64,000 bases of DNA from an uncultured Candidatus Saccharibacteria bacterium (GTDB taxonomy: Bacteria; Patescibacteriota; Minisyncoccia; Phycocordibacterales; UBA2100). The notes beneath the pieces were generated by a model. It saw only the letters and a program-made list of their open reading frames with translations, did no database searches and was not told where the DNA came from. Position numbers and translations under genes: made by a program. Below, one piece after another: positions 1,185 to 63,278 of the stretch. The stretch is taken from positions 60,965-124,964 of the forward strand of contig CAYYEX010000002.1 of assembly GCA_964471165.1 (NCBI GenBank), given 5' to 3'. Positions within the stretch are counted from its first letter, which is position 1. The number at the start of each line of letters is the position of its first letter.

Positions 1185-1255
1185 GCGGATATGGTTTAGT
1201 GGTAGAACACGTCCTTGCCAAGGACGGGATCGGGGTTCGATTCCCCGTATCCGCA
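1185..1255 (+). tRNA. tRNA-Gly (anticodon GCC), CCA not encoded
   Basis: cloverleaf folded by hand: acceptor GCGGATA/TATCCGC, D-arm, anticodon stem CGTCC/GGACG with loop TTGCCAA, T-arm GGGGTTCGATTCCCC, discriminator A. Confidence 0.85.
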
Positions 1256-1258
1256 CAT

Positions 1259-1298
1259 GAAATACAAAAGGGGCGCGACAAGCGCCCCTTTTGTATTT
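1259..1298 (+). terminator. long perfect hairpin (aaatacaaaaggggcgcg-acaa-cgcgccccttttgtattt) with T-run: intrinsic terminator after tRNA-Gly
   Basis: 18-bp perfect inverted repeat with GC-rich core followed by TTTTG. Confidence 0.75.
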
Positions 1299-1301
1299 CA
1301 G

Positions 1302-1428
1302 GCGAGAGGAGGGGAATCGAAGGCGAGCACTGGGGCCCCGTCAGAAGACGGGGATGTGCGAGCAGGGCCGAGCGGAGAAATGTTCTGACGAGAACATTTC
1401 GAGCGCTTGGCCGCTTCCCCATATCCGC
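1302..1428 (+). ncRNA. tRNA-linked structured element, copy 1 (unnamed family)
   Basis: 5' end GGGGAATCGAA = reverse complement of the tRNA-Gly T-arm; 3' end TTCCCCATATCCGC repeats the tRNA-Gly 3' end (13/14 identical); conserved hairpin CCCCGTC-AGAA-GACGGGG; GACG-loop hairpin AAATGTTCT-GACG-AGAACATTT. Copies 2-4 share the architecture. Confidence 0.6.
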
Positions 1429-1541
1429 TTGACAGAGAACGTGCGACGGCAAAGCGAGAGGCGAGGGAGATTCCTCGTATTGGGCAGTAATCTGTCAGTC
1501 TCCACAAACAAAACAATCTTTGCGCGTGCTAAAATGCCGCA

Positions 1542-2294
1542 ATGCTTAAGGAATTGCAGGATATCGGTTTGTCGGAGAAGGAAGCACGAGTCTACTTGTC
1601 TGCACTCGAGCTCGGCCGCACAACAGCCGAAAAGCTCGCAAAACACGCCAAGGTCAATCGATCCACCACCTACGTGCAGATTGAGACACTCATGAAAAAG
1701 GGCCTCATGAGCACCTACGAGGAGGACAAGAAGACATACTTTGCTCCTGAGTCACCAGAACTCCTACGACGCTTCCTCACAAAACAAAAAGACGATCTCT
1801 CTGCACGCGAACGCGACCTGGCAGTCGTGCTACCCACACTCCTGCAGCAGTTTGATGGTGCAGGGGAGCGCCCCGTGGTGCGTTTTTTTCCAGGAAAAGA
1901 GGGAATCACTTCGGTTCGCGAGGAGATGCTCAACGTAAAAGATAAGCATATTTTTATCACGCTTACATACGAGCATCTTTCGAAGATTTATACGGAAAAG
2001 GAACTCGACGACTACTCTGACCGCAGAAAAGCCCTCGGCGTTCACTCTAAGGGAATCTACCTTCACAAGGAGTACTTCAGCAAGGCGGGGCTCGATAGCT
2101 TAACCGAGCGACGATTGTTGCCTCCTGACACGCTCCCACTCACCATAGATTTGTATATATACGACGACAAAACTGCAATTCTTTCTCTGCAGGGCACGTT
2201 GTTTGCGATGGTTGTACAAAGCGTACAAATCTCCTCGAGTATGCGCCTCATCTTCGACTTCTTGTGGGATAGGGCACAGGGACCAACTAAATAA
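1542..2294 (+). CDS. TrmB-family helix-turn-helix transcriptional regulator
   Basis: N-terminus LKELQDIGLSEKEARVYLSALELGRTTAEKLAKHAKVNRSTTYVQIETLMKKGL matches the TrmB HTH signature; 250 aa. Confidence 0.7.
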   Translation: MLKELQDIGLSEKEARVYLSALELGRTTAEKLAKHAKVNRSTTYVQIETLMKKGLMSTYEEDKKTYFAPESPELLRRFLTKQKDDLSARERDLAVVLPTLLQQFDGAGERPVVRFFPGKEGITSVREEMLNVKDKHIFITLTYEHLSKIYTEKELDDYSDRRKALGVHSKGIYLHKEYFSKAGLDSLTERRLLPPDTLPLTIDLYIYDDKTAILSLQGTLFAMVVQSVQISSSMRLIFDFLWDRAQGPTK

Positions 2295-2639
2295 AAAAGA
2301 GACCGGGGAAACTGCAAGCGTTAGCTCACAATTCCTCCGGCTCCATTGTCGTCCAATCGTCCAAGCAATTCTGCTTAGGCGGATGCGTTGACGCTCAGGT
2401 CAACGCGAAGTGGGCCTTGCAATCACCCACCGTCGCCGAAGCGCCTGTGCGTCTGGCCGACCTTCTTCACGGTCATTTTCGGGCGAAGCGGCATGTGAAT
2501 GCCGGTCTTGACGTCGGGCATGGTTCTCTCCATTGCCATGAAACCCCGGGGAAAGGGCAAGGGTAGACCCCTGAGCCACGCTCCACCAAAAAGTGCAGTG
2601 ATTCGTTGCCTACACAGGAGTATATTCCGTCAAAAGTTT

Positions 2640-2830
2640 CTGTCAATCATTGTATGTGTATAAGCTCATATTGCGATATACGATTGACATTCATTTATGT
2701 CAAATATGGCTCTATTTAGAGCCATATTTGGGTTTTCCACAGCATGTTTGTCAGCGTTCGTTGACAGAATATGCCGAGGGTATATATTGATTATGTTTAT
2801 GGAAGATAACATTACAAAGCGAAGAGAGAA
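2640..2830. promoter_or_regulatory. AT-rich regulatory region with several perfect palindromes (TTGACAT-n6-ATGTCAA; ATATGGCTCTA-tt-TAGAGCCATAT; TGTCAGCG-ttcg-TTGACAG)
   Basis: local GC drop; three operator-like inverted repeats within about 120 nt; possibly a small acidic ORF (2793-2933) downstream. Confidence 0.4.
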
Positions 2831-3224
2831 CATCATCGAGACGATGCGAACGCTGGTGCTCGCAGGGCAGATGCGCGGCGAGGAGCGGGACGAAAACGAT
2901 GATACGGATCTCCGTGGAGGGGACAGCGATTAAGAGAAAATCTGATTCTTATGAGCTATCTCAACCACAGTCCGCCAACGCTCGCAGAGAGATGTACCAG
3001 ATTTAACATAGAACCATGACAAAAAATCACAACAACGGACCACCAGCTTGAAAAAGAATCCTTATTAACCAAAACACATTTTCATGACTAACGCACAGGA
3101 CCACGCTCCGCCAGAGGAAAACGAGACGAGTCTAGAAGAGGAACAATTACTAGGGGATGGGGGCTAGCTAAAAATATTAAATGTATGGAACCCGTTATTG
3201 AACCGCCGTAGTGGTCGACAAGGC

Positions 3225-3296
3225 ACCGGGATAGCTTAGTGGGCAGAGCATCAAGTTCGGAACTTGAATGTGGAGGTTCGAATCCTTCTCCCGGAA
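3225..3296 (+). tRNA. tRNA-Pro (anticodon CGG), CCA not encoded; position 1:72 appears mismatched (A:A) so the exact 5' end is uncertain
   Basis: D-arm GCTT-AGTGGGCA-GAGC, anticodon stem TCAAG/CTTGA with loop TTCGGAA, T-arm GGAGGTTCGAATCCTTC, acceptor 3' TCCCGGA. Confidence 0.7.
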
Positions 3297-3347
3297 CTAC
3301 AAACAGTTGGGCCCTAACGCATTCGCGCTGGGGTCTTACTGTTTGTT

Positions 3348-3473
3348 TCTGGGAAAGGATTCGAAAGCGAACACTGGGGCCCCGTCAGCAGACGGGGATG
3401 TGTGAGCAGGGCCGAGAGAAGTTTTGATTCGACGGAATCAAAACGAGCTCTTGGCAGAATCCTTCTCCCGGAA
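3348..3473 (+). ncRNA. tRNA-linked structured element, copy 2
   Basis: 5' end CTGGGAAAGGATTCGAA approximates the reverse complement of the tRNA-Pro 3' end; 3' end GAATCCTTCTCCCGGAAC (3457-3474) is an 18/18 direct repeat of tRNA-Pro 3280-3297; hairpins CCCCGTC-AGCA-GACGGGG and TTTTGATTC-GACG-GAATCAAAA. Confidence 0.65.
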
Positions 3474-3483
3474 CAAACAAAGA

Positions 3484-3512
3484 ACGCCCAGGCACTGCCG
3501 TGGGCGTTTTTG
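3484..3512 (+). terminator. intrinsic terminator (CGCCCA..TGGGCG + TTTTTG) closing the tRNA-Pro/element unit
   Basis: GC-rich hairpin followed by a T-run. Confidence 0.6.
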
Positions 3513-3536
3513 CAGAAATCGCAGAGAACAGATTCT

Positions 3537-4121
3537 TCAGATTCGGCGATACCGAACGACACCGAGCTCCTTCCCGAACCGGGGTCCGATGGAACGCCAC
3601 AGTACGTCGATATTGGTTTCGATGCGCTGTTTGCGCTTTCCGACTGGGTCGACCAACGAAACAATGCGCTCCTCGGTGCGAAAGGTCTCCACGAGACTGT
3701 CGTGAATATGCTGATTCACGGGGTCTTCAGGATGAACCTCTTCGGAGTGATACTCGATTTGCAGGTCAAAGTCGAACCGAAGTGCCCCTTCCACCAGTTT
3801 TTGGAAATCGCTGATTTGTCTGAAACGAATGGCTTCGCCCTGGATACGGATGCGCCTACGCCGAAAGAAATTGTTGATTTCGGGCACAATGTCCATCGTC
3901 GAGACACCCAAGCTCTTAACGGCCGTCATAACGGCCATTTCAGATCTGAACGCTACAGCATTTTCAGCCGCAACACCGACTCCAATCGCTTTGGCGATGT
4001 CTTCTTGATCGATTAGGCCGTAGCCGTTGCGCTCGACAACCATCTGCACGCACGCTGCCGTACAGGCATTGGGCATCTGGACCAGACGTACGTATTTCCG
4101 ACCCACTGACAATGTAGTCAT
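3537..4121 (-). CDS. hypothetical protein with C39-like (papain-fold) cysteine-peptidase signature
   Basis: N-terminal LVQMPNACTAACVQMV fits the Q-x4-C-x-A-A...M pattern of C39 bacteriocin-processing peptidase domains; His-containing region downstream; 194 aa; inference from motif only. Confidence 0.4.
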   Translation of the reverse strand: MTTLSVGRKYVRLVQMPNACTAACVQMVVERNGYGLIDQEDIAKAIGVGVAAENAVAFRSEMAVMTAVKSLGVSTMDIVPEINNFFRRRRIRIQGEAIRFRQISDFQKLVEGALRFDFDLQIEYHSEEVHPEDPVNQHIHDSLVETFRTEERIVSLVDPVGKRKQRIETNIDVLWRSIGPRFGKELGVVRYRRI

Positions 4122-4286
4122 GTTCGTTCATACCCCCCGCCATGGATACTTTCTGTATAGTGCCGATTGTCCGGAAAATAGCAATAGAACACAAAAAAAG
4201 TTTGTCAATACTTTCTGACAGTTTGGCAGCCCAATTAGGCACGCGTTATAAAAAAACGAAGATGTAATGTAGTATTCCAAAGTTCT

Positions 4287-4358
4287 GCTCTCATAGTGAA
4301 ATGGATATCACGACAGTCTTCGGAACTGTTATTGGGGGTTCGAATCCCTCTGGGAGCA
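4287..4358 (+). tRNA. tRNA-Arg (anticodon TCG), CCA not encoded
   Basis: acceptor GCTCTCA/TGGGAGC (one G-T pair), D-arm GTGA-AATGGATA-TCAC, anticodon stem ACAGT/ACTGT with loop CTTCGGA, T-arm GGGGGTTCGAATCCCTC. Confidence 0.8.
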
Positions 4359-4404
4359 AAAAATTAACGAGGACAACGCGAAGCGTGGGACGACTATAAT
4401 TTTG

Positions 4405-4589: not shown

Positions 4590-6068
4590 ATGACCCACAT
4601 GAAAAAAGCGGACCTGGAGATTCCATCGGAAATCCGTGCGCTCCATAAAACTGTGAAAGACGCCGGGTATGAGGCATTCTTGGTAGGCGGATGCGTGCGT
4701 GACCTAATCATTGGTCGCGAACCAAAAGACTGGGACATCACCACAAATGCGACCCCCGAGCAGATTCAAGCACTGTTCGAGGAAACATTTTATGAAAACA
4801 GCTACGGGACGGTGGGTGTGGTTACCCAATCCGAAAACCCCAAGCTCAAGGTGGTAGAAATCACGCCATACCGCATCGAGGGCAAGTACAGCAATGCCCG
4901 TCATCCCGACGAAATTCGCTTTAGCGACAATCTACACGACGACCTTGAGCGTCGTGACTTTACGATAAACGCGATTGCCTACGACCCAGCGACAGGGGAG
5001 CTGGTGGACGAACACGGAGGCCGTGACGATATAGGGCGCAAAGTTCTTGTAACGGTGGGGGACGCGCACGCGCGATTTGAGGAAGATGCACTACGCATGC
5101 TGCGCGCCATCCGTATTGCCGCTGAGCTCGAATTTGCAATCGACGGCACAACCATGGTGGGCATTTCCGGAAACGCCGCCCAGCTTGAAAAGATTTCCAA
5201 GGAGCGTATCCGTGATGAATTCAGTCGCATTCTGCTCTCATCGACACCGCTCACAGCTATTTATATGGCTCAAAAGCTTGGCATTTTGAAGTATGTGATG
5301 CCGGAACTTGAAGCGGGTATTGGCTGTGACCAAAACCAGGCGCACTCGTTTGATGTGTTTGAACACCTTTTGCGGAGCTTGCAGCACGCGGCCGATGAGA
5401 ACTGGCCTCTCGATGTACGCCTTGCAGCCCTTTTGCACGATGTGGGCAAGCCGGCAACGCGTGAATGGTCAGAAGACAAGAAAGACTGGACGTTCCACGG
5501 ACACGACGTGGTTTCTGCCCGTATGGCCAAGAAAATCCTGACTGATTTGAAATATCCCAAAGATCTCATTGAGAAAGTCGTGCTGCTTATCCGATGGCAC
5601 ATGTTTTTCTCCGACCCGGACCTCATTACGCTCTCTGCGGTACGCCGACTCATTGCCCGAGTAGGACAGGAAAACATAGCCGACCTCCTGAACTTGCGCG
5701 TTTGCGACCGAATCGGCACCGGACGACCAAAGGCACACCCGTTCCGACTGCGTAAGTACATGTCGATGATAGACGAAGCGCTGCGTGACCCGGTTTCAGT
5801 GAGCATGCTTGCAGTAGATGGCAGCAGATTGATGGAAATCGGCGAGCCGGCTGGCCCGCGCATTGGTTGGATTCTTCATGCGCTTTTGGAAGAGGTTTTA
5901 GACGAACCAACTAAGAATACAGCCGTATATTTGGAGTCTCGAGCACAGGAAATGATGGCGATTGGGGATGAGGAATTGAAAACCCTAGGCGAGCAGGGGA
6001 AGGACCGCCGCGCAGCGGAAGATGAGGCCGCTATTGCTCTTCTACGCAAGAAGCACCACGTGTCGTAG
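4590..6068 (+). CDS. cca: CCA-adding enzyme (tRNA nucleotidyltransferase) with C-terminal HD domain
   Basis: GGCVRDLIIGREPKDWDITT nucleotidyltransferase motif; RFEEDALRMLRAIR; HD motif LLHDVGK; start taken at MTHMKK (the ORF track begins 19 codons earlier at 4533). Confidence 0.85.
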   Translation: MTHMKKADLEIPSEIRALHKTVKDAGYEAFLVGGCVRDLIIGREPKDWDITTNATPEQIQALFEETFYENSYGTVGVVTQSENPKLKVVEITPYRIEGKYSNARHPDEIRFSDNLHDDLERRDFTINAIAYDPATGELVDEHGGRDDIGRKVLVTVGDAHARFEEDALRMLRAIRIAAELEFAIDGTTMVGISGNAAQLEKISKERIRDEFSRILLSSTPLTAIYMAQKLGILKYVMPELEAGIGCDQNQAHSFDVFEHLLRSLQHAADENWPLDVRLAALLHDVGKPATREWSEDKKDWTFHGHDVVSARMAKKILTDLKYPKDLIEKVVLLIRWHMFFSDPDLITLSAVRRLIARVGQENIADLLNLRVCDRIGTGRPKAHPFRLRKYMSMIDEALRDPVSVSMLAVDGSRLMEIGEPAGPRIGWILHALLEEVLDEPTKNTAVYLESRAQEMMAIGDEELKTLGEQGKDRRAAEDEAAIALLRKKHHVS

Positions 6069-42490: not shown

Positions 42491-42767
42491 GCGGCACAGT
42501 ATGCCTTTGCGTGAGAAAAAATGCAACGCTCTTACCCCTCACAGAGAGCATGTAGTTTTTTCGGCGTTCGCAGCGCGGCGGCGCGAGACAGAGGGAATTT
42601 TCAACAGAAAATTACCCGGCCGCAAAAACTACATGCTCTCGCACACTTTTCACTATCCCCGCGTTATCCACATGGTTGTCAACATCGCTACGAGGGTCGG
42701 TCAAGATTCCCTCCGCGCTTGATGTGCGTATAATGCTCAGCATTGTTCTCACTGAATCGATGCCGTA
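42491..42767. promoter_or_regulatory. rpmH-dnaA intergenic region with a perfect DnaA box TTATCCACA (42664-42672); candidate oriC half or dnaA promoter
   Basis: consensus DnaA box; divergent origin-type gene arrangement. Confidence 0.55.
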
Positions 42768-44126
42768 ATGAAATATATGATGACTAACCGTGAATTATGG
42801 CAAAACGCACTTGTTCAAATTGAACTTGGTACCACAGAAGCATCGTTTCGAACTTGGTTTCGTAACACCGACATCTCTCATCGCGATGGGGGAACTGTCC
42901 AGGTTGCTGTTCCGTCCAAAATAGTAAAGGAGTGGCTCTCTGACAAGCATCACAAGTTGATTCTCAAGGCGCTTCGCAGCCTCGATAGCTCTATTCGCAC
43001 AGTGGAATACGTTGTGCACCGCACCGCACCGCAAACTGACCGCAAACCACAGAAACAAGAGCCGCAGCAAAATGCATCGTTCGACTTACAGTCGCTCTAT
43101 ATAGACAAGCGCGACAACCTCAATCCGCGCTACACCTTCGAAACGTTTGTAGTGGGCCCGTTCAATCAACTCGCTCATGCCGCTGCAAAGGCAGTGCTCG
43201 AGCGCCCGGGTCTCGCGTACAACCCACTCTTTATCTATGGCTCCACTGGTCATGGAAAGACGCATCTTATCCAGGCTATTGGAAACTATTTCAAGAAGTC
43301 GCACGCGAACAAAAAGGTGCTTTATGTAACGAGTGAACGCTTTGCAATTGACTACATCAATGCAGTTCGTGCAGGACACGCAAACAATTTCAAAGACCAG
43401 TACCGGCAGTACGACGTACTTATAATGGACGACGTACAGTTTATTGCGAACACGGAGAAGACCCAGGAAGAGCTCTTCCACCTCTTCAACGCGCTTCGTG
43501 ATAACAATAAACAGATTGTATTCTCGTCCGATAAGCACCCAGCACTCCTCCCCGGCTTTGAAGACCGTCTCAAGGGCCGCTTCTCAGGCGGCATGATTGC
43601 GGAAATCCCTGAACCCGACGTTGAAAGCCGTACGGCCATAATTTCGGCGAAGATTGAGCAACATGGATTTTCTATCCCCGACGACATCATTCAGTACATC
43701 GCTGAAAACGTGAGGGGCAACATTCGTGAACTCGAGGGCGTGCTCAATATGATTGTTTGTAAGTCTCAGTTGAAGGGAAAGGCTATTTCCCACGCAGACG
43801 TACGTGCACTCATTAAGCACAATGTGAAGCCAAATCGCGGGGTTTCTATCGATGAAGTCGTGCGCCGTATTGCGCAATATTACGAAGTACCGGAAAAGAG
43901 TATCTACGAAAAGACTCGTAAGAAGGAGGTCGTAAAGCCACGACAAATAATCATGTATGTACTTCGTGAAGAATTCGCTGTTTCGTACCCATCAATTGGG
44001 GAGAAGCTTGGTGGTCGTGACCACACGACCGTTATTCACTCGTGCGAAAAAATCAAGGAAGAAATGAAAACATCCAGTTCACTCGAACAGGAGCTTGATC
44101 ACATTCGCGCACTCATTCACGCCTAG
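42768..44126 (+). CDS. dnaA: chromosomal replication initiator DnaA
   Basis: 452 aa; Walker A GSTGHGKTHL; box VII; C-terminal domain IV ...GGRDHTTVIHSCEKI... Confidence 0.9.
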   Translation: MKYMMTNRELWQNALVQIELGTTEASFRTWFRNTDISHRDGGTVQVAVPSKIVKEWLSDKHHKLILKALRSLDSSIRTVEYVVHRTAPQTDRKPQKQEPQQNASFDLQSLYIDKRDNLNPRYTFETFVVGPFNQLAHAAAKAVLERPGLAYNPLFIYGSTGHGKTHLIQAIGNYFKKSHANKKVLYVTSERFAIDYINAVRAGHANNFKDQYRQYDVLIMDDVQFIANTEKTQEELFHLFNALRDNNKQIVFSSDKHPALLPGFEDRLKGRFSGGMIAEIPEPDVESRTAIISAKIEQHGFSIPDDIIQYIAENVRGNIRELEGVLNMIVCKSQLKGKAISHADVRALIKHNVKPNRGVSIDEVVRRIAQYYEVPEKSIYEKTRKKEVVKPRQIIMYVLREEFAVSYPSIGEKLGGRDHTTVIHSCEKIKEEMKTSSSLEQELDHIRALIHA

Positions 44127-44363
44127 GGTATGTGGATATCGCGTGTATACCAGGGGGGAGAACACGGGGTACAGCAGTATGGAGTTTCGATGAACAACGT
44201 GGTGATATTCTCATTCGCTCGTGAATCCACTCGTTACACATCGCTCGCACAGCAGTTATCCACCACTCATCAATACAAGAATTATCGCGTGTTTCCTAGC
44301 TCAATTTGAGTTATCCAGTTATCCCCGTAACTAGTAGTAGTAATAGTCTTTAATTAAATAACT
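44127..44363. promoter_or_regulatory. dnaA-dnaN intergenic region with several DnaA-box-like 9-mers (TGTGGATAT, TTATCCACC, TTATCCAGT) and an AT-rich stretch before dnaN: candidate oriC
   Basis: boxes found by eye at about 44131, 44256, 44311; AT-rich 44320-44363. Confidence 0.55.
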
Positions 44364-45461
44364 ATGAAGATAGCCACGACGAAGGAAAAAATACTCAATG
44401 CGATTCTCATCGCTGAACGAGTCGTTGGTAAAAAAGAATCACTCCCAATTCTTTCTTGTATTTTGATTGATGCACAAAAGGAATTAGTAATACGAGCAAC
44501 AAATCTAGAAGCAGGGGTGGAAGTTGTTGTTCCAGCTGATATCCAAGAAAAAGGAACGATTGCAGTACCTGCCACGATTCTTTCTCAGACAATTCGTTCT
44601 ATCAACGGGGAAACAATTACATTCACAAGTGAAGAAGGAAATCTTTTGATTGAATCACGTGGTACGAAAACGCTCATAAAGGCCGTGCCACAAGCTGAAT
44701 TCCCACTCCTACCTACCACCACCACTAAAAAGGGTATTTCAATCAATAGGGAGCGTGTTATGCGCGGATTACAGGCTGTTAGCTATGCAGCATCCCCCTC
44801 AATGATTCGTCCGGACCTTGGAAGTATCTACATTGTGATAAAAGACGGCTCAATGGTGAGTGTTGCAACGGATTCATTTCGGCTCGCTGAGAAGACGATT
44901 ACAGGCACAGGGGCAAAAGATGATAATGAGCTCTTGATTCCTCTCAAGCACGCGCTAGAACTCACACATATTCTCGAACGCGTAGACGATGAGATGGTTG
45001 TAATAGCTATCGAAGATGCCCAACTCGTACTCTCTGGTGGTGGGGTACGGTTTGTCTCGAGAGTGGTAGACGCTACGTTTCCGAACTATAAAGAGATTGT
45101 CCCAAAGGCAACAGCAACCGAGGCAACTATATTAAAAGCCGACCTTGCTGAGATGCTTCGTAAAGCACGAGTGTTCTCCGGGAACGACCAGCATGTTGGA
45201 CTTCATATATACCCAAAGAAAAAGATATTTACTGTAACAGCTCGTTCGAGTGATGTGGGGGAGATGTCGGACTCATTCGATGCGGCTCTTACTGGGGACG
45301 ACCTCGATATCAATTTTCATATCGGATACCTTTCGGAATGTTTACCGAGTGTAGAGAGTGACAGTGTCACGTTATCCTTTGCGGGGCCCGGGAAGCCACT
45401 GGTTATTCGCGGTTCGTCTGACTCCTCGTTTATGTACCTCGTGATGCCTCTCAATCGCTAA
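44364..45461 (+). CDS. dnaN: DNA polymerase III beta sliding clamp
   Basis: 365 aa; three-domain clamp pattern; follows dnaA. Confidence 0.85.
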   Translation: MKIATTKEKILNAILIAERVVGKKESLPILSCILIDAQKELVIRATNLEAGVEVVVPADIQEKGTIAVPATILSQTIRSINGETITFTSEEGNLLIESRGTKTLIKAVPQAEFPLLPTTTTKKGISINRERVMRGLQAVSYAASPSMIRPDLGSIYIVIKDGSMVSVATDSFRLAEKTITGTGAKDDNELLIPLKHALELTHILERVDDEMVVIAIEDAQLVLSGGGVRFVSRVVDATFPNYKEIVPKATATEATILKADLAEMLRKARVFSGNDQHVGLHIYPKKKIFTVTARSSDVGEMSDSFDAALTGDDLDINFHIGYLSECLPSVESDSVTLSFAGPGKPLVIRGSSDSSFMYLVMPLNR

Positions 45462-51118: not shown

Positions 51119-51583
51119 ATGAAATCAATGATGGATGCGTGCGGACGGATGTTGTATAAGCCGTCGCTCGGACTACTTTTAATACGCGTTGGAACCGGTC
51201 TTGTGTTCTTGATGCACGGGTGGGGCAAATTCCAGAATATGGACGGCGCCAACGGATTTTTCTCAAGTATGGGATTCCCGATGGGGACCGCCACGTTTGT
51301 GGGAGGACTCGAGGTGATTGGCGGCATCGCACTTATTCTCGGCATCTTGCCGCGCGTATTTGCGATTCTCTTTGCAATCACGATGGCTGTTGCTATCTAT
51401 GCTACAGGCTTCTTTGCCAATGGCTACAAGCAGCACGAGCTCGAAATTGTCCTCTTGCTCCTCTCGCTTGGTGTCGCATTTGCCGGCTCAGGCCGCTGGT
51501 CGCTCTGGGCTGTCGAGTGCCGTAACTGCGGGGGAATGACATGCAAAGACGACCATCCACAGAGCGTTCCGGCACATCTCTAA
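51119..51583 (+). CDS. DoxX-family membrane protein
   Basis: LGLLLIRVGTGLVFLMHGWGKF DoxX signature; 154 aa. Confidence 0.65.
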   Translation: MKSMMDACGRMLYKPSLGLLLIRVGTGLVFLMHGWGKFQNMDGANGFFSSMGFPMGTATFVGGLEVIGGIALILGILPRVFAILFAITMAVAIYATGFFANGYKQHELEIVLLLLSLGVAFAGSGRWSLWAVECRNCGGMTCKDDHPQSVPAHL

Positions 51584-51671
51584 AGTGGCTCTGTAAAGCC
51601 GTGGAATGGCGGGTTTTGGGATATCCCCTGAGTTATCCACCCCACTATCCACATAGATACGCACGACTAAT

Positions 51672-51700
51672 CCCCCGAAACGGGGGATTTCGTGTTATTT
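51672..51700 (+). terminator. intrinsic terminator CCCCCG-aaa-CGGGGG + T-run after the DoxX gene
   Basis: hairpin plus ATTTCGTGTTATTT. Confidence 0.6.
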
Positions 51701-51732
51701 GCATGATTCATGAGCGCAGTATTATTTGATTT

Positions 51733-52001
51733 CTGATACGCCTTACCGTGTGTCAGCGAGAAACAGTCGATTGGTCGCAAGACCAAGAAAACCGAATCTC
51801 AGTTCCCAGGATTGGAGGAAAATGAAAGTTTTCCGGCGGCGTGGGAACAGTCGGTCAGAACAAAGGTCGTCCGGCGGAAGTCTCGTGAAAGCGAAACATC
51901 CAGCTCGAGTAGGGTGAGATCGTATCAAACCTTGCACAACCGAACGATTCGTCCGCAATGACCGAAGACGAAAAAAGGCCCCGAGTAATCGGAGCCTTTT
52001 T
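51733..52001 (+). ncRNA. candidate sRNA unit 1 (promoter-like TTGCAT-n15-TATTAT upstream; terminator GGCCCCGA-gtaa-TCGGAGCC-TTTTT at its end)
   Basis: no convincing ORF; begins with ccTTACCGTGTGTCAG, and the same 13-mer recurs just after its terminator; paralogous to unit 2. Confidence 0.4.
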
Positions 52002-52215
52002 CGTTACCGTGTGTCCTGCCAATTGTATCGGCTCACACGGCCACATATTTTCTTATCCCCACCCGATTCAAATATTTTTTGCAGCCCGTTTCTCGAGGGT
52101 AAACGCAAAATGCGGACGTTACTCACAGAGTTATACACATAGATATACAGTACTTTTCCACCAAATTTCGCTTTTTCGCAAAATTTGCGAAAAAACAAAG
52201 GGGGTATAGTAATCG

Positions 52216-52520
52216 AACTGATGCGCTTTACCGTGTGTCAGTCGATCTCAAGGGAGCGACGGCAACGTCGAAAACCCCGGAAATCAGTTCCTAGGATCTG
52301 TCTCAGCGTAAGCCGAAGTACAGTGCAGGAATGGGCGGCGAGAGCACAGGAGTGATTGCTACGAGACGGGGAGATTATATCAAGCCGAGAAGTGGAGATT
52401 GCTGATTCGAAATCGCCGTGAACACAAAGACCTCCCGCAAGGGAGGTCTTTGTGTTTGTCTCTGGCACGAATTCGAAAATCTGGAAAGGAAAAAGGCCTC
52501 GAATTTCTCGAGGCCTTTTT
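52216..52520 (+). ncRNA. candidate sRNA unit 2 (promoter-like TTGCGA..TATAGT upstream; internal 15-bp hairpin with GCAA loop; terminator GGCCTCGA-atttc-TCGAGGCC-TTTTT)
   Basis: starts ctTTACCGTGTGTCAG; shares gaaaacc..atc.cagttcc.aggat with unit 1; followed again by cgTTACCGTGcGTCc. Confidence 0.4.
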
Positions 52521-52599
52521 CGTTACCGTGCGTCCCGCTCATTCTATAGCCTTTATCAGGCGCGGAATTTGTAACGATGTGTGCATATCTGAGCAATGT

Positions 52600-52983
52600 T
52601 CAGCTTTTCACCATCAGTTTTTCTGGTTCGATGCCGTACGCTTTGCAAAACTTCAGGGCGCAGGCATGGAGTGGCGTGCCAGATTTTGTCTGAATTGCCC
52701 GCGAAACACGCTTTGCACAGAATGTCGCGTCCGATTTCTCCCGGCGGAAGAACTTGCCGATTTTCTCGCGGTCCCACGAAGGGTAGAGCGCACATGCTGC
52801 TGCCATCGCAACGACACGTGCGTGGGATTCGTTTGCGCCGCTCTCCAGGGAGCGCATGGCCTCGACCGTTGAGTTCAGGTGATGCGCTACTGCAGAGGCA
52901 AGGTCATGCATAAGCGACTCGGTGTACACGGTCGGAACCGGACCCTTTTTTGAGGTCAATTTATCCGATGGCGGTGCGTTCAT
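52600..52983 (-). CDS. stand-alone DnaA domain-IV-like (DnaA C-terminal DNA-binding domain) protein
   Basis: HARVVAMAAACALYPSWDREKIGKFFRREKSDATFCAKRVSRAIQT aligns by eye with DnaA domain IV of this genome's own DnaA ([42 protein letters not shown]); no AAA+ domain; start taken at MNAPP. Confidence 0.5.
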   Translation of the reverse strand: MNAPPSDKLTSKKGPVPTVYTESLMHDLASAVAHHLNSTVEAMRSLESGANESHARVVAMAAACALYPSWDREKIGKFFRREKSDATFCAKRVSRAIQTKSGTPLHACALKFCKAYGIEPEKLMVKS

Positions 52984-53049
52984 TTGAACTCCGGTTTTGA
53001 AAAGTGGGTGAATCTGCGCGCATCCTAAGCTTCCTGCGCAGGGAAGCAA

Positions 53050-63192: not shown

Positions 63193-63265
63193 GCGCTCAT
63201 AGCTCAGTTGGTAGAGCAGCTCCCTTTTAAGGAGACGGTCCCAGGTTCGAATCCTGGTGGGCGCA
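63193..63265 (+). tRNA. tRNA-Lys (anticodon TTT), CCA not encoded
   Basis: acceptor GCGCTCA/TGGGCGC, D-arm GCTC-AGTTGGTA-GAGC, anticodon loop CTTTTAA, T-arm CCAGGTTCGAATCCTGG; one G:A mismatch at 27:43. Confidence 0.8.
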
Positions 63266-63278
63266 CACGAATCACAAA

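What the first reader, a model, noticed from the sequence alone, without database searches (positions are those of the whole stretch)
51733..52520. Two tandem, paralogous promoter-to-terminator units (~270-300 nt each) without ORFs, each flanked by the direct repeat (c)gTTACCGTGTGTC
- Each unit has a sigma70-like -35/-10 upstream (TTGCAT..TATTAT; TTGCGA..TATAGT).
- Each starts near TTACCGTGTGTCAG, shares an internal block (gaaaacc..atc.cagttcc.aggat), and ends in a strong intrinsic terminator (GGCC..GGCC-TTTTT).
- The 13-mer recurs immediately after each terminator. Each unit is therefore bracketed by direct repeats, like a duplicated insertion or a duplicated target.
- Unit 2 additionally has a 15-bp perfect hairpin with a GCAA loop.
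- No small ORF is convincing, and I cannot match either unit to RNase P, tmRNA, SRP or 6S RNA by eye.
Basis: seen in the sequence. Interest (0 to 1): 0.55.

Follow-up and report, generated by a model that had tools for sequence, protein, structure and literature searches.

The report
Paired structured RNAs with antisense partners
Two neighbouring genes in an uncultured CPR (Patescibacteria) bacterium encode ~250-nt folded non-coding RNAs of an undescribed family. Each sits behind a row of DnaA-binding sites and probably faces a tiny antisense RNA; the layout matches a known toxin-antitoxin locus, but there is no toxin.

Summary
TTACCGTGTGTC occurs four times on the + strand (the last with one mismatch) and nowhere else in 64 kb.

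- **The RNAs.** The two units (T1 51733-52003, T2 52218-~52463) are paralogous non-coding RNAs. Orthologues lie at syntenic sites in 13 other Paceibacterota/Saccharibacteria-labelled contigs. Covariation is strong (91% paired, 32 of 60 pairs compensatory). No ORF is conserved and no Rfam family matches.
- **The repeat is not an insertion scar.** The 5' copy is the loop and 3' arm of a covarying 5' hairpin. The 3' copy belongs to a conserved module that makes sense on the minus strand: DnaA box, 25-27 nt, TAnnnT, 6-11 nt, complement of the repeat, symmetric terminator.
- **Inference.** I infer a ~50-nt convergent antisense RNA that pairs with the long RNA's terminator and 5' hairpin. This is the layout of the par/Fst type I toxin-antitoxin locus, minus the toxin ORF.
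- **DnaA boxes.** Arrays of 3-5 DnaA-box-like 9-mers at a 12-nt period precede each promoter. The dnaA promoter has the same kind of array. A DnaA-domain-IV paralogue is often encoded next door.

No transcript has been observed, and what the long RNAs do is unknown.

The parts
51621..51676 (+). DnaA-box-like array 1. Five head-to-tail 9-mers start at 51621, 51633, 51645, 51657 and 51668: ATATCCCCT, TTATCCACC, CTATCCACA, ATACGCACG, TAATCCCCC. The period is 12/12/12/11 nt.
   Evidence: Sequence. Box search. The same kind of array lies upstream of every orthologous unit and upstream of dnaA.
51669..51689 (+). Hairpin AATCCCCCGAAACGGGGGATT between array 1 and the -35 element. Its 5' arm overlaps the fifth box. 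It may also terminate doxX.
   Evidence: Terminator-like hit. Conserved in T1 orthologues, including L006, where the upstream gene is different.
51698..51725 (+). Promoter of the T1 RNA: TTTGCA, 16-nt spacer, TATTAT.
   Evidence: Promoter scan. The -35 TTGCA/TTGAC and -10 TAnnnT are conserved in orthologues at the same distance from CTGAT.
51733..52003 (+). T1 structured non-coding RNA, about 270 nt. Elements: 5' hairpin P1; P2 with a GCAA loop; P3; closing helix P4 (UCGGUCA/UGACCGA); internal helices; a conserved loop GAGAUCGUAUCAA (51916-51928); a candidate pseudoknot 51809-51813 with 51946-51950; and the terminator.
   Evidence: Fold z = -5.96. Alignment A2: 77 pairs, 32 with compensatory changes. 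Pseudoknot: 92.5% paired against 20-56% when slid.
51743..51754 (+). 5' copy of the repeat in T1. It forms the loop and 3' arm of hairpin P1 (51733-51756).
   Evidence: P1 is 99% paired in A3. A U-A to C-G double change occurs in L010.
51971..52001 (.). Symmetric (bidirectional) intrinsic terminator 1: A6, GGCCCCGA, GTAA, TCGGAGCC, T5.
   Evidence: inverted repeat I5. The A-tract/T-tract symmetry is conserved in all orthologues; on the minus strand the close group has T6.
52004..52015 (+). 3' copy of the repeat after the T1 terminator. On the minus strand it reads GACACACGGUAA.
51966..52016 (-). Predicted antisense RNA 1, about 50 nt. It has a 12-14-nt single-stranded 5' seed complementary to the repeat in P1, followed by the terminator hairpin. 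Inferred; no transcript has been observed.
   Evidence: Minus-strand anatomy is conserved in 15 modules. Predicted fold, and seed:P1 duplex of -20.8 against -10.8 kcal/mol for the P1 hairpin.
52022..52027 (-). -10-like hexamer TACAAT (ATTGTA on the + strand), 6 nt upstream of the repeat complement.
   Evidence: TAnnnT (TAGAAT, TACAAT, TATGAT, TAGACT) at 6-11 nt in 14 of the 15 modules; L013 has AAGAAT.
52053..52061 (+). DnaA box TTATCCCCA, 25 nt from the minus-strand -10-like hexamer. It would be centred near -42 of the inferred antisense promoter.
   Evidence: The 25-27-nt spacing is conserved. It is also kept in the RNA-less site of L020.
52119..52162 (+). DnaA-box-like array 2. Four 9-mers start at 52119, 52131, 52143 and 52154: TTACTCACA, TTATACACA, ATATACAGT, TTTTCCACC.
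   Evidence: Orthologous arrays are shown.
52184..52210 (+). Promoter of the T2 RNA: TTTGCG/TTGCGA, then TATAGT.
   Evidence: Sequence. Conserved in T2 orthologues as TTTGCR ... TATAGT/TATACT.
52218..52463 (+). T2 structured non-coding RNA, about 245 nt, with the same architecture as T1. Repeat 5' copy at 52228-52239; conserved loop GAGAUUAUAUCAA at 52371-52383; candidate pseudoknot 52294-52298 with 52404-52408. It ends at the 16-bp hairpin 52421-52456 plus a U-rich tail.
   Evidence: Fold z = -6.66. Alignment A3: 60 pairs, 91.1% paired, 32 compensatory, 0 of 500 shuffles reach the observed values, slid controls 33-44%.
52490..52520 (.). Symmetric terminator 2: A5, GGCCTCGA, ATTTC, TCGAGGCC, T5. 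It is separate from T2's own terminator and could also terminate the convergent ruvB operon.
   Evidence: (inverted repeat I2).
52523..52534 (+). Fourth copy of the repeat, TTACCGTGCGTC. As antisense, the T-to-C change would give a G.U pair with the 5' copies.
52486..52535 (-). Predicted antisense RNA 2, about 50 nt. Its -10-like TAGAAT lies at 52541-52546 (minus strand), with a degenerate box ATATCTGAG at about 52585-52593. Inferred.
52600..53049 (-). Convergent gene for a small protein resembling DnaA domain IV, the domain of DnaA that binds the DnaA box.
   Evidence: Pfam Bac_DnaA_C E = 1.5e-4 (below the family cut-off). The 242-aa protein of L003 scores E = 5.7e-11. Related proteins lie next to the RNA in L008, L010, L012 and L014.

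Best explanation
**What is shown by sequence comparison.**
- The locus holds two paralogous genes, T1 and T2, for ~245-270-nt non-coding RNAs of a family absent from Rfam.
- The family has a conserved multi-helix fold.
- Each gene has its own sigma-70-type promoter and intrinsic terminator.
- A head-to-tail array of 3-5 DnaA-box-like 9-mers at a 12-nt period precedes each promoter.
- The 12-13-nt direct repeat is part of the system, not an insertion scar.
- Its 5' copy is the loop and 3' arm of the RNA's first hairpin, P1.
- Its 3' copy sits directly after a symmetric terminator. From there it keeps fixed distances to a TAnnnT hexamer and a DnaA box.

**What is inferred.**
- The downstream module is a minus-strand promoter with a -10 element and no -35 element. 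A DnaA box is centred near -42, the position typical of an activator that substitutes for a -35 element.
- This promoter would make a ~50-nt convergent RNA.
- Because the DNA repeats are direct and transcription is convergent, the small RNA's 5' end would be complementary to P1 of T1 and of T2. Its hairpin would be complementary to the long RNA's terminator.
- Pairing would open the wobble-rich P1 and form duplexes at both ends of the long RNA. That would change its conformation or mark it for degradation.
- DnaA, or the neighbouring domain-IV paralogue, would bind the boxes and set the sense/antisense ratio. This would link RNA level to replication-initiation status.

**What is unknown.** The cellular target of the long RNAs.
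For: **Structured RNA.**
- A3: 60 pairs, 91.1% of cells paired, 32 pairs compensatory. 0 of 500 shuffles reach the observed values. Slid controls give 33-44%.
- A2: 77 pairs, 32 compensatory.
- Fold z-scores are about -6.

**Non-coding.** Open frames differ between homologues, and the candidate peptides are hydrophilic.

**New family.** No Rfam match in the window or in five homologue loci.

**Conservation.** 20 units in 14 contigs, all within the same dnaN-PBP-ruvC-yebC-doxX-ruvB neighbourhood.

**P1 hairpin.**
- 99% paired, with a U-A to C-G double change in L010.
- L014 changed G to A in both the 5' and the 3' copy.
- Its 5' copy pairs over 10 nt with its own 3' copy, but only 7 nt with those of the other genomes.

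**T/C position in the repeat.** The states seen are (5'T,3'T), (5'T,3'C) and (5'C,3'C). The state (5'C,3'T) is never seen. This fits G.U tolerance in an RNA duplex.

**Minus-strand module, 15 examples.**
- DnaA box, then 25-27 nt.
- TAnnnT hexamer in 14 of 15 (L013 has AAGAAT), then 6-11 nt.
- Repeat complement, then a symmetric terminator.

**Module autonomy.**
- In W-T2 and L001-T2 the module has its own terminator, separate from that of the RNA.
- It keeps its spacing in L020, where the RNA body is absent.

**Energetics.** The seed:P1 duplex is -20.8 kcal/mol, against -10.8 for the P1 hairpin.

**DnaA boxes.**
- The same 11/12-nt array precedes the dnaA promoter.
- 4 of the window's 20 near-consensus boxes lie in this 500 bp.
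- DnaA-domain-IV-like genes lie adjacent in several genomes.

**Known precedent.** The par locus of pAD1 has the same layout (PMC7472228).
Against: - No transcript data exist for either strand. The antisense RNA is inferred from sequence only.
- The inferred antisense promoter has no recognisable -35 element, and in L013 its hexamer is AAGAAT.
- In the more distant homologues the minus-strand U-tract is weak (L012: UUCUCG).
- Co-variation between the 5' and 3' copies rests on one clear event (L014) plus wobble tolerance. The sequences are phylogenetically related.
- T2 in four genomes has no module of its own.
- DnaA binding to these 9-mers is untested. Several differ from TTATCCACA at 2-4 positions.
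- Nothing indicates what the long RNA acts on.
Confidence: 0.5

Rival explanations
1. The repeat is a protein operator. A DNA-binding protein, for example the neighbouring DnaA-domain-IV paralogue or another regulator, binds ACCGTGYGT at +10..+22 and again just after the terminator. It represses or loops out the RNA gene. No antisense RNA is made.
For: - The core ACCGTGYGT is invariant at both sites in all genomes.
- The concerted G-to-A change in L014 is equally explained by one protein reading both sites.
- A DNA-binding paralogue is often encoded next door.
- The inferred antisense promoter lacks a -35 element.
Against: - The site is not palindromic.
- It does not resemble the DnaA box (4 of 9 positions).
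- A protein-binding model explains neither the conserved TAnnnT hexamer at promoter-like distance, nor the symmetric A-tract/T-tract terminator, nor the one-directional T/C asymmetry.
Confidence: 0.2
2. The locus is primarily a DnaA-titration or DnaA-regulatory box cluster near the origin, like datA or the Bacillus DnaA-box clusters. The RNAs are secondary, and the repeats are incidental conserved sequence.
For: - About 11 DnaA-box-like 9-mers lie within 1 kb, 7.5 kb from the origin.
- They are arranged at a 12-nt period, as at the dnaA promoter.
- The arrays and the downstream box persist in L020, where there is no RNA body.
Against: Strong structural covariation throughout the RNAs shows selection on the RNA itself. 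The arrays always keep a fixed position relative to a conserved promoter.
Confidence: 0.12
3. It is a true par/Fst-type type I toxin-antitoxin locus. The long RNA would be an mRNA for a small toxic peptide, with translation blocked by the antisense RNA at the repeat.
For: - The architecture matches par: ~230-nt RNA, ~40-nt convergent RNA, shared bidirectional terminator, direct repeats, 5' stem-loop (PMC7472228).
- An AUG at +4 and a GUG inside the repeat open short frames in T2 and in several single units.
Against: - T1 has AUA/ACA in place of the AUG, L012 has AUU, and L017 stops after two codons.
- Frame lengths range from 14 to 80 aa.
- The peptides are hydrophilic and basic, not membrane-like, and there is no Shine-Dalgarno sequence.
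- Compensatory changes and indels whose lengths are not multiples of three run through the whole RNA.
- The locus is chromosomal and syntenic.
Confidence: 0.06
4. The repeats are the scar of a mobile or duplicated element (target-site duplication).
For: - Direct repeats bracket each unit.
- L020 has a site with a single hybrid repeat and no RNA body, which could be read as an empty target.
Against: - The promoter and the 5' arm of P1 lie outside the bracketed segment, yet covary with sequence inside it.
- There are no terminal inverted repeats, no transposase, and the locus is syntenic in all genomes.
- The repeats are conserved at 52-67% flanking-protein identity.
- L020 keeps the orphan promoter and P1 arm, which fits deletion between the repeats better than an uninserted state.
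Confidence: 0.04
5. The 3' copy acts in read-through transcripts. When the terminator is bypassed, the second copy competes with the first for the 5' arm (CUGAURCG). This forms a long-range closing helix that changes the RNA's fold or processing.
For: The 3' copy can pair with 6-7 nt of the 5' arm. The concerted L014 change keeps that pairing.
Against: - The 3' copy lacks the CAG that completes P1, so the long-range helix would be weaker than the local hairpin.
- The terminator is strong.
- This model does not explain the TAnnnT hexamer or the DnaA box downstream.
Confidence: 0.08

Closest known systems
par (fst RNA I / RNA II) type I toxin-antitoxin locus of Enterococcus faecalis pAD1, and the wider Fst/Ldr family
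   Same: - A long (~230-nt) structured RNA and a ~40-nt RNA from convergent promoters.
- One shared bidirectional intrinsic terminator, which makes the 3' ends complementary.
- DNA direct repeats transcribed in opposite directions, which give a second complementary region at the 5' end of the long RNA.
- An intramolecular 5' stem-loop that partly hides that region (PMC7472228).
   Different: - No Fst-like ORF, hydrophobic peptide or Shine-Dalgarno sequence.
- One repeat instead of two (DRa and DRb).
- The long RNA has a covarying multi-helix fold with a candidate pseudoknot.
- Both inferred promoters are associated with DnaA boxes.
- The locus is chromosomal, syntenic and in Patescibacteria, not Firmicutes.
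- The antisense RNA has not been observed.
RNA-RNA pairs in which a non-coding RNA is countered by an antisense RNA: type VIII toxin-antitoxin (SdsR/RyeA) and sRNA/anti-sRNA pairs
   Same: A non-coding RNA would be controlled by a complementary RNA encoded at the same locus. This comparison rests on my own knowledge, not on a tool result.
   Different: Those pairs overlap extensively. They do not use a direct repeat together with a shared terminator. No toxicity or target is known here.
DnaA-box clusters and DnaA-regulated promoters (dnaA autoregulation, datA/DARS, Bacillus DnaA-box clusters)
   Same: Closely spaced head-to-tail DnaA boxes lie upstream of a promoter near the origin. The dnaA promoter in this window has the same kind of array.
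   Different: Here the arrays drive, or flank, structured RNA genes and an inferred antisense promoter. Binding is untested, and many of the boxes are degenerate.
Large structured bacterial RNAs of unknown function found by comparative genomics (raiA, ROOL, OLE, GOLLD classes)
   Same: Size in the hundreds of nucleotides, several GNRA tetraloops, a candidate pseudoknot, strong covariation and no known function.
   Different: No sequence or structure match to any of them in Rfam 15. This family is restricted, so far, to one Patescibacteria lineage and is smaller.

Membership tests
par/Fst type I toxin-antitoxin | Convergent promoters for a long RNA and a short RNA | tested here: inconclusive
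   The long-RNA promoter is conserved. On the minus strand only a conserved TAnnnT hexamer and a DnaA box are seen, with no -35 element. No transcript data.
par/Fst type I toxin-antitoxin | Shared bidirectional intrinsic terminator | tested here: met
   A symmetric A-tract / GC stem / T-tract is present in all units that have a 3' module.
par/Fst type I toxin-antitoxin | DNA direct repeats at the 5' ends of both genes, giving RNA complementarity | tested here: met
   One 9-12-nt repeat is present. par has two.
par/Fst type I toxin-antitoxin | 5' stem-loop sequestering the interaction or translation-initiation region | tested here: met
   The P1 hairpin is 99% paired and contains the repeat. 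It does not hide a Shine-Dalgarno sequence.
par/Fst type I toxin-antitoxin | ORF for a small hydrophobic Fst-like toxin with a ribosome-binding site | tested here: not met
   No conserved frame, start codon or hydrophobic peptide in 19 homologues.
Any Rfam 15 family (including RNase P, tmRNA, SRP, 6S, HEARO/omega RNA, raiA, ROOL) | Score at or above the family's gathering threshold | tested here: not met
   Only four tRNAs in the window. In the region the best hit is 29 bits against a 55-bit threshold, and it is driven by the terminator. Nothing at the RNA positions in five homologue loci. ARAGORN finds no tmRNA.
Transposable element or MITE with target-site duplication | Terminal inverted repeats, a transposase, copies at unrelated sites, and non-conserved flanking duplications | tested here: not met
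   - The ends read show no inverted-repeat similarity, and flanking genes are housekeeping genes.
- All copies lie in one syntenic neighbourhood.
- The repeat core is conserved across genomes.
Chromosomal origin of replication (oriC) | DnaA boxes next to DnaA-trios and an AT-rich unwinding element, at the GC-skew switch | tested here: not met
   The skew minimum is at 43-45 kb. The boxes, TAGTAGTAGTAATAG and an AT-rich stretch lie at 44311-44365, between dnaA and dnaN. The finding is 7.5 kb away and has no trios.
DnaA-regulated promoter | DnaA binds the boxes and changes transcription | not testable with these tools
   Only sequence similarity to TTATCCACA, and the same array type at the dnaA promoter.

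The most novel reading that the evidence does not exclude
This is an RNA-only, DnaA-wired switch near the origin of Patescibacteria. A ~250-nt pseudoknotted RNA, possibly a ribonucleoprotein scaffold or a catalytic RNA, would be held in check by a 50-nt convergent antisense RNA. The antisense RNA would act through the same direct-repeat and shared-terminator logic as par toxin-antitoxin loci. Both promoters would be read out by DnaA or a stand-alone DnaA-domain-IV paralogue. RNA activity would therefore follow the replication cycle. That would make it a non-coding counterpart of a type I toxin-antitoxin system, adapted for cell-cycle control.
Probability: 0.25. Interest if true: 0.75.

Novelty: new variant of a known kind. 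Interest (0 to 1): 0.6.

Why it matters
- **New RNA family.** Patescibacteria have tiny genomes and almost no described regulatory RNAs. A conserved, strongly covarying ~250-nt RNA family that is often duplicated and sits a few kb from the origin is a concrete new RNA to study.
- **Known design in a new setting.** If the inferred antisense partner exists, the par design (convergent RNAs, shared terminator, direct repeats) is not tied to toxin mRNAs. It can also control a non-coding RNA.
- **A testable link to replication.** The DnaA-box arrays and the neighbouring DnaA-domain-IV paralogue offer a way to connect replication initiation with RNA regulation in organisms that cannot yet be cultured alone.

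Tried and rejected
- **Rfam.** Gathering threshold on the whole window; E-value mode on the region; E-value mode on five homologue loci. Only tRNAs and terminator-driven noise.
- **tmRNA.** ARAGORN found none.
- **Origin of replication.** Rejected: the GC-skew switch and a complete box/trio/AT-rich module lie between dnaA and dnaN.
- **Small ORFs.**
  - The AUG at +4 frame, the GUG-in-repeat frame and the ATG in the P4 3' strand (MTEDEK...) were examined. The last runs through the terminator.
  - None is conserved in frame, length or start.
- **Mobile element or target-site duplication.** Rejected; see the rival explanations.
- **CRISPR-like array, retron, IS200/IS605 omega RNA.** No repeat-spacer periodicity. 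No reverse transcriptase, TnpB or IscB nearby. The locus is syntenic.
- **Trans targets in the window.** No complement of the repeat or of the conserved loop GAGAUCRUAUCAA beyond chance.
- **Metagenome pattern scan.** One locus only.
- **Viral contig scan.** No hits.
- **Literature searches.** Searches for a described Patescibacteria RNA of this kind found nothing relevant.
- **Pseudoknot.** Suggestive only. Shuffles reach the observed values in 24 of 500 and 80 of 500 trials.
- **DoxX-homologue loci.** Five contigs (L011, L015, L016, L018, L019/L020) have no RNA body by nhmmer.
Full report
**1. The observation**

The 12-mer TTACCGTGTGTC is exact at 51743, 52004 and 52228. It has one mismatch (TTACCGTGCGTC) at 52523. 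All four are on the + strand. The core TACCGTGYGT occurs four times in 64 kb against 0.22 expected, and no shuffle reaches four.

Both units have promoter-like hexamers:
- Unit 1: TTTGCA, 16-nt spacer, TATTAT at 51698-51725.
- Unit 2: TTTGCG/TTGCGA and TATAGT at 52184-52210.

They share a 24-nt start, CTGATRCGCYTTACCGTGTGTCAG, and internal blocks. The GGCC...GGCC-T5 hairpins are present at 51977-52001 and 52495-52520. Both are preceded by A5-6, so they are symmetric. That is probably why the terminator scan, which appears to extend stems maximally, did not list them (my inference).

The "15-bp" hairpin is 16 bp, perfect, with a GCAA loop. Both units fold far better than shuffled sequence, with z = -5.96 and -6.66.

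**2. Genomic setting**

The window is a chromosome segment with this gene order:
- dnaA, 42768-44126
- dnaN
- a class A penicillin-binding protein
- ruvC
- an HD-domain protein
- yebC
- doxX, 51119-51583
- the two units
- a 149-aa gene on the minus strand
- ruvB
- a type II/IV secretion ATPase
- tsaE
- polA

Close relatives are labelled Candidatus Paceibacterota or Saccharibacteria. These are Patescibacteria, the Candidate Phyla Radiation (CPR).

The GC-skew minimum is at 43-45 kb. The dnaA-dnaN spacer holds TTATCCAGTTATCCCCG, then TAGTAGTAGTAATAG, then an AT-rich stretch. This is the box/trio/unwinding arrangement known from bacterial origins (my own knowledge). The finding therefore lies 7.5 kb from the origin and is not the origin.

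**3. Homologues**

- A pattern scan of species-representative genomes found the unit in five metagenome-assembled genomes, plus one chance hit in a Robinsoniella coding region.
- The metagenome scan added one locus.
- Following DoxX homologues to their contigs added more.
- nhmmer with profiles of the units located the RNA in 14 contigs.

| Arrangement | Contigs |
|---|---|
| T1 and T2 in tandem | W, L001, L003, L004, L006, L007 |
| T1 only | L002, L008 |
| One T2-like unit | L009, L010, L012, L014, L017 |
| One T1-like unit | L013 |

All lie in the same dnaN...ruvB neighbourhood. The position varies: after doxX, before doxX, or after a usg-like gene. Five contigs with the same or a different neighbourhood have no RNA body (L011, L015, L016, L018, L019/L020).

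**4. The units are structured non-coding RNAs**

RNAalifold gives the same architecture on two separate alignments: T1 plus L013 (A2, 8 sequences) and T2 plus the single units (A3, 11 sequences). The elements are:
- a 5' hairpin, P1;
- a three-part hairpin, P2, capped by a GNRA loop;
- a long hairpin, P3, starting at GUUCC;
- a closing helix, P4 (UCGGUCA/UGACCGA), around an inner domain;
- in that domain, a hairpin that presents the nearly invariant loop RGAGAUCRUAUCAA;
- the terminator.

In A2, 32 of 77 pairs have compensatory changes. In A3, 91.1% of cells are paired and 32 of 60 pairs are compensatory. No shuffle in 500 reaches the observed values, and sliding the partners gives 33-44% paired.

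A 5-nt pairing is also suggested: GGAUC, 7 nt after GUUCC, with GAUCC just before the 3' strand of P4. It is 92.5% and 85.5% paired, against 4-67% when slid. Double changes occur in L004-T1 (GAGUC/GACUC), L006-T2, L012 and L014. The shuffle support is only moderate, so I call it a candidate pseudoknot.

No reading frame is conserved. Open frames differ in phase and length between homologues. The AUG at +4 is missing in T1, L012 and L017. The candidate peptides are hydrophilic.

Rfam 15 has no matching family, either in the window or in five homologue loci.

**5. The repeat**

The 5' copy is inside the RNA. The 5' arm CUGAURCG pairs with CGUGUGUCAG, and CUUUAC is left as the loop. This hairpin is 99% paired. 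It contains three G.U pairs. L010 shows a U-A to C-G double change.

The 3' copy starts two bases after the terminator's T-run, so it is not part of the terminated RNA. It is kept in single-copy orthologues whose DoxX is only 52-67% identical. That excludes a recent insertion scar.

The sequence after the 3' copy is also conserved in layout. Read on the minus strand, each of the 15 examples has, in order:
- a DnaA box (TGGGGATAA or TGTGGATAT);
- 25-27 nt;
- a TAnnnT hexamer (TAGAAT, TACAAT, TATGAT or TAGACT; AAGAAT in L013);
- 6-11 nt;
- the complement of the repeat (ACRCACGGUA);
- a hairpin flanked symmetrically by an A-tract and a T-tract.

On the minus strand the close group has a T6 run, against T5 on the + strand.

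The sequences between these elements vary. This is how a promoter evolves. There is no -35 hexamer. The box would be centred near -42, the position typical of an activator that replaces a -35 element (my own knowledge).

**6. Inference: a convergent antisense RNA**

I infer ~50-nt minus-strand RNAs at 52016 to 51966 and 52535 to 52486.
- They fold as a free 12-14-nt 5' tail plus the terminator hairpin.
- The DNA repeats are direct and transcription is convergent, so the tail is complementary to the repeat in P1 of both T1 and T2.
- The duplex is worth -20.8 kcal/mol, against -10.8 for the P1 hairpin.
- The hairpin is complementary to the long RNA's terminator.

Three observations fit this model:
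- In W-T2 and L001-T2 the module has its own terminator, 30-40 nt beyond the RNA's own terminator.
- L014 changed G to A in both copies. Its 5' copy pairs over 10 nt with its own 3' copy, but only 7 nt with those of other genomes.
- At the T/C position, every observed combination allows a Watson-Crick or G.U pair. The one combination that would give a C-A mismatch is absent.

These are few events in related sequences. No transcript has been observed. I put this part at about 0.45-0.5.

**7. Comparison with par**

This is the layout of the par locus of pAD1. That locus has a ~230-nt RNA I and a ~40-nt RNA II from convergent promoters. They share a bidirectional terminator. Direct repeats DRa and DRb are transcribed in opposite directions, and a 5' stem-loop is present (PMC7472228).

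The defining toxin ORF is absent here. The locus therefore works like par on paper but is not a member of that family.

**8. DnaA boxes**

Each long-RNA promoter is preceded by head-to-tail 9-mers resembling TTATCCACA, at a 12-nt period:
- Array 1: five boxes at 51621-51676.
- Array 2: four boxes at 52119-52162.

Every orthologue has such an array. The dnaA promoter in this window has the same kind of array at 42653-42684. Four of the window's 20 near-consensus boxes fall within this 500 bp.

The convergent 149-aa gene has a weak match to DnaA domain IV. The 242-aa protein in L003 has a clear match (E = 5.7e-11). Related fast-evolving proteins lie next to the RNA in L008, L010, L012 and L014.

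Regulation by DnaA or by this paralogue is a reasonable inference, but it is untested.

**9. A site without the RNA**

In L019/L020 the sequence upstream of doxX reads as follows:
- box array;
- promoter;
- CTGATGCGCTTTACCGTGCG;
- GCGCGCTG;
- ATTGTA;
- 25 nt;
- TTATCCACA.

The left side is the context of a 5' copy. The right side is the context of a 3' copy. The RNA body and terminator are missing.

Deletion by recombination between the two repeats explains this best, because an orphan promoter and P1 arm remain. It shows that the repeats also make the gene easy to lose.

**10. Verdict**

The reading as non-coding RNA genes holds. The reading of the repeats as an insertion or target scar does not.

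The RNA family appears undescribed. The antisense and DnaA parts are inferred from conserved anatomy. The function of the long RNAs is unknown.

Noticed in passing
window 44311-44365: The dnaA-dnaN spacer holds two overlapping DnaA boxes (TTATCCAGTTATCCCCG). They are followed by TAGTAGTAGTAATAG (DnaA-trio-like repeats) and an AT-rich stretch. This sits at the GC-skew minimum and is the probable unwinding site of the origin.
   Followed up: partly
window 42653-42684: Three head-to-tail DnaA-box-like 9-mers (CTATCCCCG, TTATCCACA, TTGTCAACA) at an 11/12-nt period lie upstream of the dnaA promoter (TATAAT near 42729). This is the same array type as in front of the two RNA genes.
   Followed up: partly
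window 52600-53049 (-); L003 1623-2351; L010 5811-6560; L014 5500-6174; L008 4943-5203; L012 6365-7147: A fast-evolving family of small stand-alone proteins resembles DnaA domain IV. It recurs next to the RNA module, usually convergent with it. Most members score below Pfam's cut-off.
   Followed up: partly
L020 about 5795-5960 (also L019): A site with box array, promoter, one hybrid copy of the repeat, the ATTGTA hexamer and the DnaA box, but no RNA body or terminator. It looks like deletion between the two direct repeats.
   Followed up: partly
window 51669-51689; L006 (oriented) about 1545-1570: The hairpin between the box array and the -35 element has an identical stem, but its loop reads GAAAC in the window and L003 and GTTTC in L006. 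It looks as if the palindrome's centre had been flipped.
   Followed up: no
window 1185-4359 and 63193-63266: Three tRNA genes lie within 3.2 kb (Gly-GCC, Pro-CGG, Arg-TCG), and there is a tRNA-Lys-TTT near the other end of the window.
   Followed up: no
window 51958-52209 (+): An 83-codon ATG frame starts in the 3' strand of helix P4 (MTEDEKRPRV...). It runs through the terminator, the repeat and the spacer. The ATG is conserved only because it is part of the helix. Gene callers placed spurious short genes over the RNA in several loci (for example L009 3803-3976).
   Followed up: yes
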